Shown here piece after piece: positions 9,593-47,941 of a stretch of 53,981 nt of DNA (position 1 is the first letter of the stretch; each line of letters begins with the position of its first letter). The DNA comes from a virus (taxonomy: Duplodnaviria > Heunggongvirae > Uroviricota > Caudoviricetes): the IMG/VR virus record IMGVR_UViG_2529292919_000008. One strand, written 5' to 3'. The position numbers and the translations under genes are program-made. Below the pieces are notes generated by a model. That model was given only the letters and a program-made list of their open reading frames with translations, made no database searches and was not told where the DNA came from.

Positions 9593-10249
9593 TCAGCCGC
9601 CGGACGCACTGCCGTAGTTCACTCCGGTGATCACCGCCACCGCCGCGGTACGGCGACGACGCCAGTTGATCCAGCGCTCCGCACGGATGGCCACGCTGCC
9701 TGTCTGGAACATGGAAACCAGCTCCACCGGGGACGGCGTGGTACTGTCGCCGGTCGGCTCAGACTGCATTTCCAGTGATGCCTCGCGGGACATATCCACT
9801 GCCACGCCTCCGTCATCCGCCAGATAAATATCCGGGGCATTCACCAGCACCAGCTGGTCACCCACGTACTGGGAGACAATCACCGGCAGCCCCTGGAAGG
9901 AGCCACCCAGCAGGGTCATGTCCGGGTATTCCTTCTGACCCAGCGCATTTTTACGCATGGACAGTGCCAGGGCATTGGTGCTGGACATCAGCCAGACCGC
10001 ACCGGTGGGCTGCAGGTTTGCTGCCACAAACTGTCCAAACGCAGCCTCTGCATCCGCATCCGGGTTACCGGTTGATGCCGTGCCCTTCACATCATGGGTG
10101 ATGGACGCCGGGGAGACATCTGCCACTGCGGCTTTTTTCGGGTCCACAAAGTCTGTATCCAGACGCGCCACCACCGCTTCCGCCAGCGCATTACGGACCA
10201 GTGCATCAGCAGCCGGACTGGAAAAACGGATCAATTCTTCCGTCAGTAC
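9593..10249 (-). pseudogene. 3' fragment of the HK97-type major capsid gene, split by the Mu-like insertion
   Basis: Translation ...LTEELIRFSSPAADALVRNALAEAV...FQTGSVAIRAERWINWRRRRTAAVAVITGVNY looks like an HK97-fold capsid C-terminus. The frame continues upstream only into Mu-end sequence and resumes in frame at 46661. Confidence 0.75.
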
Positions 10250-10410
10250 TGTGGGGTAGTGATCAATTCTGGGCGGAGTTAGTGCAGCCTGGTAGAACCG
10301 GCAAGCCTTGTGTGGCGCGGGGTGTGGTGATTTAGCGTGATTCTGGGCGGATTTGTGAGAAATGACCAAAAACGCTTTTTTTTGCGCTTTTTTCTGGGCG
10401 CTTTTGATCT
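10250..10410 (+). promoter_or_regulatory. Left end (attL) with three transposase-binding-like repeats
   Basis: TTCTGGGCG occurs at 10267, 10341 and 10391, and the same motif recurs at the right end. The third copy is preceded by GCGCTTTTT, as in the right terminus. Confidence 0.6.
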
Positions 10411-10561
10411 GGTTCTGCTACAAACTTAACGGGTTTTAAATGCTTTTAAAAAGAGTTTTATCCTTACCCGTTTTCCTCAATTTGTTCTCATCTGTTGTGT
10501 TCGGTTTTGTTGTGGTTATTGCTGATTAGCTAACAGCACACGCCCCGCCAAAACGAGGCGC

Positions 10562-11209
10562 TTATGCTGATTTCTTGTTTACAGGCTTAGTTTCTTGCTC
10601 CGGTGTGACGGGAACGCGATCACCTGGTGTTCCAGCACAGAAAATGGCTTTGGCGCGGCGCAAAATCTCTTTGTCATTTTCCTCATCGCCAGCTAATGCC
10701 ATGCAAACAGCGTCTTTAAGCGATTGCCTGATGTTCAGGCTTTGAATGGCCTTTCTTTGCTCCTCAAGTTCGCTATCGGCTTGCTTAGTTTGCCTGGTGG
10801 GTTGCTGTAGGCGTTCCAAGATTCCTTTAATGCCCATATCGCATATTGCACTTATCAGCTGTTCCTTATCTTCTGTGGACGCTCTTTTCAATAACTCGTT
10901 AACTAGCTCGTTTGTAATATCGGGAGAAGGCTGCGCTGTTTGATTTGATAGAGAACTTTCTTTGGCGATGGGTTCCTCACCGTAAGCGAGCCAATTTAAG
11001 CTCACTTGTTCTTTATCTGATATAAGGCAAGCTATTTTAAAAGAAGGCTCTGTTCCTTTATGAATGTAGTTGTTTAAGGTTGAAGGGGGGATTCCCCAAT
11101 CACTCGCAGCAGTTCTGACACTACGGTTACCTATCAGCTTTACTAAACGCTCTCTGAAACTTTCTTTTTCCCGGTCGACAAAAGAAAAAGCATCATCATT
11201 TCTAGTCAT
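10562..11209 (-). CDS. Putative repressor (Mu c-like position), HTH DNA-binding protein
   Basis: 215 aa, transcribed leftward next to the left end and divergent from ner. HTH-like segment RTAASDWGIPPSTLNNYI...SLNWLAYGE. Confidence 0.5.
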   Translation of the reverse strand: MTRNDDAFSFVDREKESFRERLVKLIGNRSVRTAASDWGIPPSTLNNYIHKGTEPSFKIACLISDKEQVSLNWLAYGEEPIAKESSLSNQTAQPSPDITNELVNELLKRASTEDKEQLISAICDMGIKGILERLQQPTRQTKQADSELEEQRKAIQSLNIRQSLKDAVCMALAGDEENDKEILRRAKAIFCAGTPGDRVPVTPEQETKPVNKKSA

Positions 11210-11231
11210 TTTTTCTTTCCTCTATAACTTA

Positions 11232-11259
11232 TTGATTTTAATTGCAAAAACCATATAAA
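11232..11259 (+). promoter_or_regulatory. Candidate sigma70 early promoter (TTGATT, 16-nt spacer, TATAAA) for ner-A-B
   Basis: Hexamers read directly in the c/ner divergent intergenic region; not validated. Confidence 0.3.
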
Positions 11260-11342
11260 GACCAAAATCAAAAAGAAAATACAAAGAAAGGGCTATTTTT
11301 GCTTTACATGGGCTACATATGGATCAATACTTATATCCGAAG

Positions 11343-11375
11343 GGATAACACGGCGGTGTTATCCGCACGGATAAC
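11343..11375 (+). promoter_or_regulatory. Operator-like palindrome GGATAACAC-N4-GTGTTATCC plus third GGATAAC half-site
   Basis: Perfect 9-bp inverted repeat at 11343-11364 and an extra half-site at 11369-11375, just upstream of the ner start. Confidence 0.45.
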
Positions 11376-11391
11376 TTTTAAGGGTAACCTA

Positions 11392-45605: not shown

Positions 45606-46017
45606 GCCATTCAATATCTGGCGCACCGGAAGTATCGACCAGCTCCAGTGCGTCCAGATAATCCAGCCACAAATTATATTGCGCCAGTTCCTCACCTTTC
45701 AGGCGACCAATCGCCGCTTTACCAGGCCATTGCTTACTGTTTATGTATTCGTTGACCTGATTAATCAATTGCTGCTTTTCCAGTTCGGCTGCGGCAATTT
45801 GTTCCTCATGAGTTGGCGGTGGAATATCAATCCATGCAGGCATTCCGTCGATGACACCTCTGTATTTTCCTTCTGGTGCTTCCTTCATAAATTCGGCGGC
45901 AACAGTGTCGTCAATTTCGATTCCATCACCGGGCCATTCGCCGGATTCCTGATAAGCGATTTTAAGCTCCACAGGGAAAAACGCATTTTTATCGGCACTG
46001 AAAATATATTTCTGCAT
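45577..46017 (-). CDS. Alternative tail fibre assembly protein U' (inverted orientation)
   Basis: MQKYIFSADKNAFF... with Tfa-type C-terminus ...LWLDYLDALELVDTSGAPDIEWPTPP. Convergent with and overlapping U. Confidence 0.6.
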   Translation of the reverse strand: MQKYIFSADKNAFFPVELKIAYQESGEWPGDGIEIDDTVAAEFMKEAPEGKYRGVIDGMPAWIDIPPPTHEEQIAAAELEKQQLINQVNEYINSKQWPGKAAIGRLKGEELAQYNLWLDYLDALELVDTSGAPDIEWPTPPAVQAR

Positions 46018-46019
46018 TT

Positions 46020-46378
46020 CTACCGTCCTATCGAAATATAACTGAATCTGTATTGCTGTGAGATATCACTGGTTGCCACACGCCACGCTGAATTACTGAT
46101 ATGTTCAAAATTTACAGACAAAACCTGCGGGGCAGGATTCGACGGGTCTGACTGAACGGCATCAGACATAACACTGACTGAAACCATCGGCTGATTAGGG
46201 AATGGTATAGGGAAGTGTCCACTGATAAAGCGGGTCGTGTTTCCTGAAAAAGTGCCAAACTGAACAATATATCCACCTGGTAGCCTGAACCATCCCGAAC
46301 CAGAAGCGAATGCTCCCATATCCGGTATCTGATTATCTCCTGTGCCCACATCCCTTTTCGCCGCTTCTCCTAAACCAA
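46020..46378 (-). CDS. Alternative tail fibre variable segment S'v (promoterless cassette)
   Basis: Reading frame continues through the right gix-like site (...GLGEAAKRDVGTGDNQ...), matching the GLGE junction in S. Has no upstream constant region in this orientation. Confidence 0.5.
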
Positions 46379-46390
46379 CGTTTATGAAAA
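46365..46390 (+). promoter_or_regulatory. gix-like recombination site (right, inverted)
   Basis: TTCTCCTAAACC-AA-CGTTTATGAAAA. Its reverse complement shares TTGGTTT(G/A)GGAGAA with the left site, and the central dinucleotide is inverted (AA vs TT). Confidence 0.55.
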
Positions 46391-46444
46391 TGCAGAAATA
46401 ACGAGCAAATGGCATCATTCCTGCTTTTGTCAGGGTGATCTACC

Positions 46445-46540
46445 ATGTTTATAGGCTATGTACGCGCATCAACAAATGACCAGGACACCGATTTACAACG
46501 CAATGCGTTGAACTGTGCAGGATACGAGCTGATTTTTTGA
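46445..46540 (+). pseudogene. gin: Truncated gin-type serine invertase (N-terminal 31 codons only)
   Basis: MFIGYVRASTNDQDTDLQRNALNCAGYELIF then stop. Matches the Gin/Hin/Pin N-terminus including the catalytic-serine region (YVRxST). A full invertase is about 190 aa. Confidence 0.8.
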
Positions 46541-46569
46541 GGGTAAATCATCAGCATGAGACTAATAAT

Positions 46570-46655
46570 TTAGCGTCCAATTCTGGGCTTTTTGGTTGCG
46601 CTCTCTCCGCCCAGAATTGTGCGCCAATTAGCCCAGAAAAAAACGCGAAGTTACA
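46570..46655 (+). promoter_or_regulatory. Right end (attR) with transposase-binding-like repeats
   Basis: TTCTGGGC at 46581-46588, inverted CGCCCAGAATTG at 46608-46619 and GCCCAGAAAAAAACGCG at 46631-46647. Element ends ...TTACA at 46655. Confidence 0.6.
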
Positions 46656-47941
46656 AGTACCGCAATGGCCGACACCTTCGCATGACTGAAGGTGATGGAT
46701 TCAAAATCAAACTTCGTCAGGGGTTTTGCCTTACCCTCACCCACCCAGCCGGCAGCACCGCCGGACACCTGGGCGTGCACACGGATATTGAACGGCACCT
46801 GACGAAGTGCAGGGATCCCGCCCTGACCAAATCGCCCGATAATGGTCTGCGGACGCAGGTAATCAATAAAGTCCTGTGCGTATTCCTGATATTCAGACAG
46901 GCTGCCTGCCCACTGCGGATCCGTGGTGGTCCCCGCGCCCACTGCCGATTTCAGGACATGATGCAGACGACTGTCATCCGGATACTGACGACGGGCCACT
47001 TCCAGGGCTTCAGATCGGACGCCTTTAGCCGCAGCCAGCGATTTGGCAAAGCGGGCGAAGCCAATCCCCTTATCCAGTTTCTGCTCCACACGGATCACCG
47101 GCGCAGAAGCCACCGCGGCCACATTCCCGTTACCGGCCTGTTTCACCGGCTGCGCCGTGGCGGCCTTACCGGCTTCCAGTTCACGCAGGCGCTTCAGGTG
47201 CGCATCCACCTGACGGATTTCCGCTGCGGTGTTGTCGTAATGCTCTTCCTCCTCCACATCCAGCGTGCGCCCTTCCTCTGCGGCTTTGGTCATGACCTCC
47301 TCAAGGGAGGCTGCCAGCGCTGCACGCTTGTTTTCAAAACTTTTAATCTGTTCGCCAATATTCATTATGGTCTTTTCCTTATGAAAAACGGTTGTTGACT
47401 GTGCCGCAGCGCCGGCAGAAGATGCGATTTTCACCACCGGTTTCCGGTTGCCGGACGCGGCAGAAAACGGGCGGTCGTAAGATTTAATGGTCCGGATGGT
47501 GCATTCCGCATTCGCGGGCACGGTGACGGCAGACACCTCCATCAGTTCCCAGCGCAGAAAATGCAGTCCGCCTCCGTCCAGAAAGGTGTATTCATGGGGA
47601 CGGAAGCCCACGGACAGCCCCCTGACCAGCCCGGTCTTAATGGCCGCCCAGACCTCATCCAGCCGGGCAGCCAGTTGCGACGGCATATCCGGTACGGGCT
47701 TCACCAGTGTTGCCGTGATTTCCAGCCCTTCGCTGACCCGGCGCACCGTACACTGCCCCACCGGGCGGGAATGGTCATGCTGCCAGAGAAACGGGATCGC
47801 ACTGCCAAACTCCGCGCCCTCCGGCTCCAGGATGTCACCATCCCGATCCGGAGAAGGCGTTGACGCAATCCCGGTGATCACTCGTTCATCCTCACTGAAG
47901 GATTTCACCGTCAGCAGGGAACAGGCCCGTTTAAGAGTCAC
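46656..47941 (-). pseudogene. 5' part of the prohead protease / major capsid fusion gene, split by the Mu-like insertion
   Basis: N-terminal HK97-type prohead protease domain (ITGIASTPSPDRDGDILEPEGAEFG...PFLWQHD...ELMEVSAVTVPANAEC) runs in frame into capsid sequence (...GWVGEGKAKPLTKFDFESITFSHAKVSAIAV). The frame then enters the Mu end and stops. Confidence 0.75.

What the first reader, a model, noticed from the sequence alone, without database searches (positions are those of the whole stretch)
10245..46660. Mu-like transposable prophage inserted inside the capsid gene of another prophage
The lambdoid prophage's fused prohead-protease/major-capsid reading frame (minus strand) runs 47941 to 46661, is interrupted, and resumes in frame at 10249 to 9593. 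The intervening 36,406 bp begin TG and end CA, carry repeated TTCTGGGCG motifs at both ends, and are flanked by a perfect 5-bp direct repeat AGTAC (10245-10249 and 46656-46660), the hallmark of Mu-type transposition. Deleting the element and one repeat copy gives ...SHAKVSAIAVLTEELIRFSSPAADALV... across the junction. This is a clean, datable example of one temperate phage inactivating another, and it is missing none of the Mu core functions.
Basis: partly seen in the sequence, partly recalled or inferred. Interest (0 to 1): 0.8.

Follow-up and report, generated by a model that had tools for sequence, protein, structure and literature searches.

The report
Mu-like prophage splitting another prophage's capsid gene
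A complete 36.4-kb Mu-type transposable prophage has jumped precisely into the head-protein gene of a resident lambda-like prophage in an E. coli draft genome; this is a real and tidy example of something already documented in E. coli, not a new kind of system.

Summary
Window 10250-46655 (36,406 bp) starts TG, ends CA and is flanked by AGTAC on both sides. Removing it plus one AGTAC restores a 645-codon protease-capsid gene. The restored junction is 100% identical over 1,400 bp to the uninterrupted gene of E. coli E2348/69. Both junctions recur in an independent assembly of a public read set.

The insert is a distant Mu relative (25-42% amino-acid identity). It has an intact MuA-type transposase, a MuB-like ATPase, three repeated motifs at each end, and full lysis, head and contractile-tail modules. 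Its closest relative is the prophage in eutC of E2348/69 (92-98% nucleotide identity where it aligns).

Three sub-claims need correcting.
- The invertase gene is a 31-codon stump, com/mom are absent and no Gam was detected.
- Fourteen other insertions of this lineage have 4-bp duplications, so the 5 bp seen here is the exception, not the hallmark.
- Nothing makes the event datable.

Mu-like phages nested in other E. coli prophages are already published and annotated in GenBank. This is a new member of a known kind, of low to moderate interest.

The parts
9593..10249 (-). 3' part of the host lambdoid prophage's fused prohead-protease/major-capsid gene (codons 428-645 and stop)
   Evidence: Joined to 46661-47941 it is 645/645 aa identical to the E2348/69 capsid protein.
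10245..10249 (.). Left copy of the target-site duplication, AGTAC
   Evidence: Reproduced in the Logan assembly (L036).
10250..46655 (+). Mu-like transposable prophage, 36,406 bp, with TG...CA ends
   Evidence: GC skew changes sign at both junctions.
10250..10420 (+). Left end (attL-like) with three direct TTCTGGGC repeats at 10267, 10341 and 10392
   Evidence: The first repeat starts 17 nt from the end, the same distance as at the right end.
10562..11209 (-). Divergently transcribed repressor (CI-type helix-turn-helix, not homologous to Mu c)
   Evidence: Phage_CI_repr domain. No Mu c hit. 99.5% identical to the E2348/69 copy.
11392..11628 (+). Ner-like early regulator
   Evidence: HTH_35 domain. 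42% aa identity to Mu Ner.
11628..13670 (+). MuA-family DDE transposase (680 aa), with D308, D374 and E414
   Evidence: HTH_Tnp_Mu_1, rve and Mu-transpos_C domains. Alignment and sequence.
13689..14582 (+). MuB-like AAA+ transposition ATPase
   Evidence: AAA_22 and TniB domains. 33% aa identity to MuB.
14597..14821 (+). Kil-like small protein directly after B
   Evidence: phrog_2679 'Kil protein', E = 5.7e-35.
14834..20268 (+). Semi-essential early region (DUF3164, DUF2786/DUF7168, DUF4752, Ead/Ea22-like and unknown ORFs). It is the most variable part relative to the E2348/69 copy.
20240..20638 (+). GemA homologue
   Evidence: GemA Pfam domain, E = 7.9e-18.
21237..21704 (+). Mor/C-family transcription activator (the only one found)
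   Evidence: Mor Pfam domain. RefSeq annotation of the E2348/69 copy.
22208..23415 (+). Lysis cassette: two holins and a GH108 endolysin
   Evidence: 99-100% identical to the annotated E2348/69 proteins.
23821..26750 (+). DUF1804 protein, an N6/N4 DNA methyltransferase (24368-25108) and the large terminase (25110-26750)
26754..33470 (+). Mu-type head module: portal, F, G, protease I, capsid T and connector proteins
   Evidence: Portal_Mu, E = 2e-95. 31-41% aa identity to Mu H, F, I, T and J. Full length against E2348/69.
34312..44188 (+). Contractile tail and baseplate module: sheath, tube, tape measure, N (DNA circularisation), P, gp45, gp46, gp47 and gp48
   Evidence: DNA_circ_N.
44188..46418 (.). 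Tail-fibre host-range segment: S (44188-45012) and U (45012-45605) on the + strand, alternative U' (45577-46017) and S' C-terminal part (46020-46418) on the - strand. Candidate crossover sites lie near 44476-44496 and 46362-46382.
   Evidence: Caudo_TAP twice, Gp53-like_C. Crossover sites AAACCTTGGTTTGGGAGAA / AAACGTTGGTTTAGGAGAA.
46445..46540 (+). Remnant of the gin-type invertase gene: 31 codons, then a stop
   Evidence: 77% aa identity to Mu Gin residues 1-31 only. Also annotated as a partial pseudogene in E2348/69.
46560..46655 (+). Right end (attR-like) with repeats at 46631-46638 and 46609-46616 (same orientation, 22 bp apart) and 46581-46588 (inverted)
46656..46660 (.). Right copy of the target-site duplication, AGTAC
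   Evidence: Reproduced in the Logan assembly (L038).
46661..47941 (-). 5' part of the host capsid gene (codons 1-427: protease domain, linker and start of the capsid domain). As it stands it reads on into the Mu end to a stop at 46628, giving a 437-aa chimera.
1..9592 (-). Host lambdoid prophage late genes downstream of the capsid gene: portal, connectors, tail tube, chaperones, tape measure, tail M and L
   Evidence: Colinear with and 99.8% identical to the E2348/69 prophage. All proteins are full length.
47942..53981 (-). Host lambdoid prophage genes upstream of the capsid gene: large and small terminase, HNH endonuclease and the lysis cassette

Best explanation
A temperate, Mu-type transposable phage of the lineage also present in eutC of EPEC E2348/69 infected, or transposed within, an E. 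coli strain that already carried an E2348/69-type lambdoid prophage. The window is the whole GenBank contig AIEY01000039.1.

Inferred mechanism, by analogy with Mu. The MuA-family DDE transposase binds the three repeats at each end. With the MuB-like ATPase delivering target DNA, it joins the 3'-OH of the terminal CA at each end to staggered positions in the target. Gap repair then leaves a short duplication, here AGTAC.

The target was codon 427/428 of the resident prophage's fused prohead-protease/major-capsid gene. As a result the lambdoid prophage now has a split capsid gene and a late operon interrupted by 36.4 kb in the opposite orientation. It can no longer build its own heads unless another prophage supplies capsid protein.

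The inserted phage itself looks functional. It has a repressor, Ner, A, B, Kil-like, GemA and Mor genes and full lysis, head and contractile-tail genes, all full length. Its host-range inversion switch has lost its own invertase.

Shown: the precise insertion, the duplication, the gene content, the end repeats and the mobility of the lineage. Inferred: the biochemical steps, current inducibility, and loss of function of the host prophage.
For: - Precise insertion: the reconstructed empty site is 100% identical over 1,400 bp to an intact gene. The restored protein is 645/645 identical.
- Not an artefact: both junctions recur in a second assembly. This exact transposase sequence sits on a single contig of the assembly, and that contig reads through both junctions.
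- Transposition machinery: MuA domain set with D308/D374/E414, and a MuB-like AAA_22 ATPase.
- Ends: TG...CA with 3+3 TTCTGGGC repeats. The end-proximal repeat starts 17 nt from each terminus, the two outer right-end repeats are 22 bp apart and the third is inverted.
- Phage content: synteny with Mu and 25-42% aa identity for Ner, B, H, F, I, T, L, N, P and gp45-48. All but two of the 54 E2348/69 prophage proteins have a match without internal stops, and every transposition, lysis, head and tail protein is full length; the exceptions lie in the variable early and fibre regions.
- Mobility of the lineage: the same conserved ends occur at 14 other sites in other strains, each with a flanking duplication.
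- Host prophage: otherwise colinear and 99.8% identical to E2348/69, with intact late genes.
Against: - No experimental evidence that either phage is or was active.
- The duplication is 5 bp here but 4 bp in all 14 relatives examined. This event is therefore atypical for its own lineage, or carries one extra A at the right junction.
- The repressor has no detectable similarity to Mu c, and no Gam, com or mom was found.
- gin is truncated.
- Only 17.5 kb of the host prophage is on the contig. Whether it was already defective elsewhere cannot be judged.
Confidence: 0.93

Rival explanations
1. Assembly chimera: the contig wrongly joins a Mu-like prophage located elsewhere to fragments of a lambdoid prophage.
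For: The window is a draft-genome contig. E. coli genomes carry several near-identical lambdoid prophages, with up to 7 copies of this capsid gene per genome.
Against: A misjoin would not place the two halves of one gene exactly at the two conserved termini of the element with a duplicated 5-mer. Nor would it restore a 100% identical gene on deletion. A second assembler reproduced both junctions from SRR094164.
Confidence: 0.01
2. The insert is a real transposition product but is now a dead remnant: a grounded Mu-like prophage that can no longer transpose or form particles.
For: - gin is reduced to 31 codons and com/mom are lacking.
- No isolated phage in the phage collection resembles it at nucleotide level.
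- The Sp18 Mu-like prophage of O157 Sakai, a related type, was not mitomycin-inducible (PMC2669165).
Against: - Every transposition, lysis, head and tail gene is full length with no internal stops, and the DDE triad is intact.
- Both duplication copies are identical.
- The truncated gin is shared by relatives that sit at many different sites, so it has not stopped the lineage from moving.
- gin and mom are non-essential in Mu (established knowledge).
Confidence: 0.2
3. The 5-bp duplication is really the lineage's normal 4-bp duplication (GTAC) plus one extra A at the right junction. The A would come from a later 1-bp insertion or a base-calling error in the AA run.
For: 14 of 14 other insertions with the same termini have 4-bp duplications. 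One of them (SCAID WND1-2021) is verified against a known empty site as +4 bp. Related Sp18-like insertions are annotated with 4-bp duplications in GenBank.
Against: The extra base is present in two assemblies, though possibly built from the same reads. The sequence as it stands is a perfect 5-bp direct repeat, which is what occasional 5-bp staggered strand transfer would produce. A spontaneous 1-bp insertion exactly at the junction is improbable.
Confidence: 0.3

Closest known systems
Mu-like prophage interrupting eutC in EPEC O127:H6 E2348/69 (NC_011601.1, about 2715935-2751670)
   Same: - Same termini (TGTGGGGTAG...CGCGAAGTTACA), same gene order and the same truncated gin.
- 92-98% nucleotide identity over most of the length.
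- A, B, Ner and structural proteins are 97-100% identical.
   Different: - Different insertion site (eutC) and a 4-bp duplication (CACT).
- Mosaic differences in the early accessory region (17.9-22.0 kb of the window), the middle of the tape-measure gene and the tail-fibre segment.
- It is 35,736 bp against 36,406 bp here.
- The window's copy is a sibling, not a transposed copy of it.
Sp18-like Mu phages inserted into Stx-converting prophages of STEC (GenBank LC727881 and LC727895; Microb Genom 2023, PMC10132054)
   Same: These are also Mu-like transposable phages nested inside lambdoid prophages of E. coli, with a short target duplication annotated at the junctions. The paper reports 6 of 10 Mu-like phages sitting in mobile elements, and insertions in several Stx phages.
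   Different: - A different Mu-like lineage: transposase 44.5% identical, ends TGTAACC...GCGCTATA.
- LC727881 interrupts a head-tail connector gene rather than the capsid gene.
- The duplication is 4 bp.
Related Mu-like prophage in the same capsid gene family of E. coli SCAID WND1-2021 (NZ_CP082831.1)
   Same: Same element family and same orientation relative to the gene. It splits the same 1,938-bp protease-capsid gene of a homologous lambdoid prophage.
   Different: It is an independent event at about codon 200 instead of 427, with a 4-bp duplication (ACTT). The element is 97.6% identical over only 88% of the left 4 kb.
Escherichia phage Mu (AF083977)
   Same: - Genome size, TG...CA ends and the 3+3 end-repeat layout.
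- Gene order: c / ner-A-B-kil / early region / gemA-mor / lysis / head / contractile tail / invertible fibre segment.
- A 5-bp duplication in this particular insertion.
   Different: - Only 25-42% aa identity where detectable, and no nucleotide similarity.
- The repressor, endolysin, large terminase and fibres are unrelated by BLAST.
- No Gam, C, com or mom, and gin is truncated.
- The lineage normally makes 4-bp duplications.

Membership tests
Mu-type transposable phages (MuA-family transposase) | DDE transposase with the MuA domain architecture and an intact catalytic triad | tested here: met
   HTH_Tnp_Mu_1, rve and Mu-transpos_C domains. D308 and D374 align with MuA D269 and D336. E414 was assigned by eye from the GVIER motif, because the alignment did not place MuA E392.
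Mu-type transposable phages (MuA-family transposase) | MuB-like AAA+ ATPase gene immediately downstream of the transposase gene | tested here: met
   13689-14582 has AAA_22 and TniB domains and 33% aa identity to MuB.
Mu-type transposable phages (MuA-family transposase) | Termini 5'-TG...CA-3' with several transposase-binding repeats at each end | tested here: met
   The TG/CA termini are conserved in 15 copies. There are 3+3 TTCTGGGC repeats, the third at the right end inverted. Protein binding itself is not testable here.
Mu-type transposable phages (MuA-family transposase) | Insertion at many unrelated sites, each with a short target duplication | tested here: met
   15 different sites, including eutC, scpC, yfcC, mhpT, hyfB, an RHS gene and two positions in the capsid gene, all flanked by direct repeats.
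Mu-type transposable phages (MuA-family transposase) | Duplication of exactly 5 bp, as for Mu | tested here: inconclusive
   It is 5 bp (AGTAC) in the window but 4 bp in 14 of 14 other insertions of the lineage.
Mu-type transposable phages (MuA-family transposase) | 36-39 kb genome with Mu gene order and the Mu-type head module (portal, F, G, I, T) plus DNA circularisation protein N | tested here: met
   36,406 bp. Portal_Mu and DNA_circ_N domains, and BLAST hits in Mu order.
Mu-type transposable phages (MuA-family transposase) | Replicative transposition on induction, and packaging with variable host DNA at the ends | not testable with these tools
   Needs induction and virion or junction sequencing.
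Genus Muvirus (close relatives of Mu, such as D108 and SfMu) | Nucleotide-level similarity and high protein identity to Mu | tested here: not met
   Megablast of the left 24.7 kb of the element found no phage record covering more than 3% of the query, and Mu was not among the records listed. Protein identity to Mu is 25-42%, and many Mu proteins have no hit.
HK97-type fused prohead protease / major capsid gene of lambdoid prophages (the target gene) | Peptidase_S78 domain followed by an HK97-fold capsid domain in one open frame | tested here: met
   The restored 645-aa product has Peptidase_S78 at 48-152 and Phage_capsid at 386-635. It is identical to the annotated E2348/69 protein.
Din-family invertible tail-fibre switch (Mu G / P1 C / e14 P type) | Functional serine invertase gene next to the segment | tested here: not met
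   Only 31 codons remain (46445-46540) before a stop and the right end of the element.
Din-family invertible tail-fibre switch (Mu G / P1 C / e14 P type) | Inverted crossover sites flanking alternative fibre C-termini and chaperones | tested here: inconclusive
   Alternative S'/U' genes are present on the opposite strand. The candidate inverted sites match at 17 of 19 positions. The Mu gix sequence itself is absent.

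The most novel reading that the evidence does not exclude
The E. coli Mu-like clade that includes this element, and the Sp18 type, may normally join its ends 4 bp apart rather than Mu's 5 bp. The window may then capture the same machinery producing a 5-bp event, which would mean the target spacing of a MuA-family transpososome is not fixed. The literature I found describes only 5- or 6-bp scars for transposable phages (PMC8705779).

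A second reading that is also not excluded: these phages are over-represented inside resident prophages. Evidence is two independent hits in one 1.9-kb capsid gene among 15 insertions, and 6 of 10 in mobile elements in PMC10132054. That could be a real targeting or survival bias that works as phage-against-phage interference.
Probability: 0.3. Interest if true: 0.45.

Novelty: new member of a known kind. Interest (0 to 1): 0.3.

Why it matters
It is a clean, fully resolvable case of one temperate phage disabling another. The empty site is known to the base, the disrupted gene is essential for head assembly, and the intruder is intact. Such nesting affects which prophages can still be induced or can spread virulence genes in pathogenic E. 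coli.

The phenomenon is already reported for Sp18-like Mu phages in Stx prophages, so the window adds an instance rather than a principle. The most useful by-product is the survey of this lineage's junctions. It shows a 4-bp rule with one 5-bp exception, which matters for anyone using '5-bp duplication' as a search criterion for Mu-like prophages.

Tried and rejected
- Looked for the same insertion elsewhere. None of 5,426 complete E. coli genomes has either junction. The exact left junction is absent from the species-representative genomes and from IMG/VR.
- Looked for a named, isolated phage. Megablast of the left 24.7 kb against 50,697 phage records gave only small patches of accessory genes.
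- Tried to read the 4-bp duplications as 5 bp by moving the element boundary one base either way. This fails: the fifth base matches in only 4 of 14 cases, about as expected by chance, and the termini are constant. I also tested whether the window could be a 4-bp event without an extra base. It cannot, because the capsid fragments sum to 1,938 + 5 bp.
- Searched for Mu gix sites and long inverted repeats around the fibre segment and found none. Only short candidate crossover sites turned up by hand.
- Scanned eight proteins, including four unknown accessory ORFs, the DUF3164 and DUF2786 proteins and the repressor, against PADLOC. Only the methyltransferase scored, as a type II or orphan MTase.
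- Tried to read the E2348/69 genome paper (not held) and to identify the strain from its WGS prefix (no paper).
- Considered an assembly chimera and rejected it (see rival explanations).

Full report
**Observation**

The window carries AGTAC at 10245-10249 and again at 46656-46660. The 36,406 bp between them begin TGTGGGG and end GTTACA. On the minus strand an open frame runs from 47941 down to the right junction. A second frame runs from the left junction down to a stop at 9593.

Removing the element and one AGTAC gives a 1,938-bp frame of 645 codons. It has a Peptidase_S78 prohead-protease domain at residues 48-152 and an HK97-type Phage_capsid domain at 386-635.

A 1,400-bp reconstruction of the empty site is 100.0% identical, without gaps, to the uninterrupted 'phage major capsid protein' gene of E. 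coli O127:H6 E2348/69. It is present at 80% coverage or more in 1,248 of 5,426 complete E. coli genomes. The insertion is therefore exact to the base and is not a chance repeat.

GC skew flips sign at both junctions, as expected when a block of plus-strand genes sits inside minus-strand genes.

**Is it an artefact?**

The window is the whole GenBank contig AIEY01000039.1 of assembly GCA_000249115.2. A separate Logan assembly of read set SRR094164 contains the same left junction (L036, 99.97% identical over 7.3 kb). It also contains the same right junction, GTTACA|AGTACC, and the identical 437-aa chimeric product that reads across it.

The exact transposase sequence is found on only this one contig of the assembly, and that contig reads through both ends. 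I regard an assembly chimera as excluded.

**What the insert is**

Against phage Mu (AF083977), tblastn gives hits in Mu order for Ner (42%), A (29%, core only), B (33%), portal H (38%), F (41%), protease I (31%) and capsid T (38%). It also hits J, sheath L (29%), N, P, gp45, gp46, gp47, gp48 and U'. It finds only the first 31 residues of Gin.

Family scans add the following:
- The transposase has HTH_Tnp_Mu_1, rve and Mu-transpos_C domains.
- The B-like protein has an AAA_22 domain.
- HTH_35 (Ner), GemA, Mor, Portal_Mu, DNA_circ_N, DUF1804 and DUF3164 are present.
- A Kil-family protein lies directly after B.
- A large terminase is present.

Aligned with MuA, the first two catalytic aspartates are conserved (D308 in VGDGH, D374 in SDNGG). 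A GVIER motif supplies E414.

The 8-mer TTCTGGGC occurs nine times in the window against 2.4 expected. Six of those lie at the element's ends. Three are direct copies 17, 91 and 142 nt from the left terminus. At the right end there are copies 17 and 39 nt from the terminus in one orientation and a third in the inverted orientation. From established knowledge of Mu, this is the layout of its L1-L3 and R1-R3 transposase-binding sites. Binding itself is inferred.

**Closest relatives and integrity**

The best match is the prophage that splits eutC in E2348/69, at 92-98% nucleotide identity in ten colinear blocks. Of its 54 annotated proteins, 52 have a match in the window without internal stops. 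Every transposition, lysis, head, tail and baseplate protein is full length at 83-100% identity.

The differences are mosaic. They fall in the accessory early region (about 17.9-22.0 kb), the middle of the tape-measure gene, and the tail-fibre segment. The window's element is therefore a sibling phage, not a copy of the E2348/69 one.

No deposited phage genome resembles it at nucleotide level. The nearest transposases of isolated phages are 49% identical (Pseudomonas VW-6B), about 45% (Klebsiella and Yersinia Mu-likes) and 40% (Mannheimia 3927AP2, Haemophilus SuMu). Sp18-like E. coli elements are 44.5% identical.

**What is missing**

- The invertase gene stops after 31 codons (46445-46540) and runs straight into the right-end repeats. 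The same stump is annotated as a partial pseudogene in E2348/69.
- Alternative fibre and chaperone genes still lie on the opposite strand. Two short inverted candidate crossover sites remain. Inversion would need an invertase supplied in trans.
- com and mom are absent. An N6/N4 DNA methyltransferase sits between the DUF1804 gene and the terminase gene instead.
- No Gam homologue and no second Mor/C-type activator were found. The repressor is a CI-type protein unrelated to Mu c.

None of these losses is known to prevent Mu growth (established knowledge). I therefore infer that the phage is probably viable, at about 0.6-0.7.

**The host prophage**

The 17.57 kb of flanks, once joined, are colinear with an E2348/69 lambdoid prophage at 99.8% identity. 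The terminase, portal, connector, tail and lysis proteins are all full length.

The only lesion visible in the window is the split capsid gene. The late operon now also carries 36.4 kb in the opposite orientation. The upstream fragment would give a 437-aa chimera that keeps the protease domain. Loss of head assembly is inferred. Complementation by other lambdoid prophages is possible, because this gene occurs up to seven times per genome.

**Duplication length**

I recovered both junctions of 14 other insertions with the same conserved termini.
- E2348/69 eutC (CACT) and SCAID WND1-2021 capsid (ACTT).
- TUM1881 scpC (TATC), 160-11H1 yfcC (GACA) and CFS3292 mhpT (ATTC).
- 2824 hyfB (CATC), GPEC349-628 (TTTG) and GF75 RHS gene (CTTC).
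- tcmA_3 (GAGA) and 47-1826 (TTTG, at a different site from GPEC349-628).
- Four IMG/VR genomes (CTTG, CATG, CACG, AACC).

All have 4-bp direct repeats. The fifth base agrees in only 4 of 14 cases, about as chance predicts.

For SCAID the empty site is known. Removing the element plus 4 bp gives a gapless 1,938-bp gene, and removing 5 bp does not. In the window the fragments sum to 1,938 + 5 bp.

GenBank records LC727881 and LC727895 annotate 4-bp 'duplication due to insertion' for Sp18-like Mu phages. I confirmed these from the sequences (AGAG, CATC).

The 5-bp repeat that looked like the Mu hallmark is therefore the exception in its own lineage. Either this was a genuine 5-bp staggered event, or it is a 4-bp GTAC duplication plus one extra A. 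I cannot decide between the two. A review-style introduction lists only 5 bp (Mu) and 6 bp (B3) scars (PMC8705779). A text search for a 4-bp Mu-like duplication found nothing.

**Precedent and novelty**

Nesting of Mu-like phages in other E. coli prophages is already on record.
- PMC10132054 reports 10 Mu-like phages in 13 closed STEC genomes. Six of them lie inside mobile elements, and several Stx phages carry insertions.
- LC727881 has one inside a head-tail connector gene homologous to window 6473-6799.
- Strain SCAID WND1-2021 has a member of this same lineage in the same capsid gene. It sits about 680 bp away (near codon 200), in the same orientation.

One more hit in a 1.9-kb gene among 14 other insertions is mildly surprising. 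My rough estimate is about 1-2% if sites were uniform and the gene were present in one to three copies. It fits the reported excess in mobile elements. It may simply reflect that insertions in prophages cost the host nothing.

**Verdict**

This is a new member of a known kind: a Mu-type transposable prophage of the E2348/69 lineage nested in a lambdoid prophage.

The 'datable' claim has no basis beyond these facts. The junction is absent from E2348/69 and from all complete genomes searched. The two duplication copies are still identical.

Noticed in passing
window 10245-10249 / 46656-46660, compared with L001, L004-L034: This Mu-like lineage leaves 4-bp target duplications in 14 of 14 other insertions. 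The window's 5-bp AGTAC is the only exception (or it is GTAC plus one extra A at the right junction).
   Followed up: yes
L004 (NZ_CP082831.1 2788500-2831500), element at locus 2158-37973: A second, independent insertion of the same Mu-like lineage lies in the same lambdoid protease-capsid gene. It is in the same orientation, about 680 bp from the window's site, with a 4-bp duplication ACTT.
   Followed up: yes
window 44188-46540: The tail-fibre host-range segment keeps alternative S'/U' genes on the opposite strand and two short inverted candidate crossover sites (about 44476-44496 and 46362-46382). Its invertase gene is cut to 31 codons, so the switch is frozen unless another prophage's invertase acts in trans.
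   Followed up: partly
window 24368-25108: An N6/N4 DNA methyltransferase gene sits between the DUF1804 gene and the large terminase gene, and com/mom are absent. It may be the functional stand-in for Mom-type DNA protection, as described for other Mu-like prophages (abstract of PMC3299994).
   Followed up: partly
L040-L042 (LC727881.1, LC727895.1): The Sp18-like Mu phages nested in Stx phages have termini TGTAACC...GCGCTATA (TG...TA rather than TG...CA) with 4-bp duplications. This departs from the 'TG-CA in all Mu and B3-like phages' statement in PMC8705779.
   Followed up: partly
window 30051-30259: A gap of about 210 bp with no annotated gene lies between the G-like and protease I-like genes, slightly past the middle of the element. 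Mu has its strong gyrase site in the same intergenic position. I did not examine the sequence.
   Followed up: no
window 7262-7855 (host prophage portal gene, minus strand): Self-matches offset by 162 bp at 88-91% identity indicate tandem repeats inside the 861-aa portal gene of the lambdoid prophage.
   Followed up: no
window 17900-22040: The accessory early region differs from the E2348/69 copy by whole-gene replacements. Examples are a 285-aa Ead/Ea22-like protein at 18075-18932, and unknown ORFs at 19291-19695 and 20635-21138 that match only PHROG families of unknown function. None hits a PADLOC defence model.
   Followed up: partly
window 49666-50259: The small terminase of the host prophage is only 94.4% identical to the E2348/69 protein, while its neighbours are 100% identical. 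A short overlap at a block boundary suggests a local indel or recombination patch.
   Followed up: no
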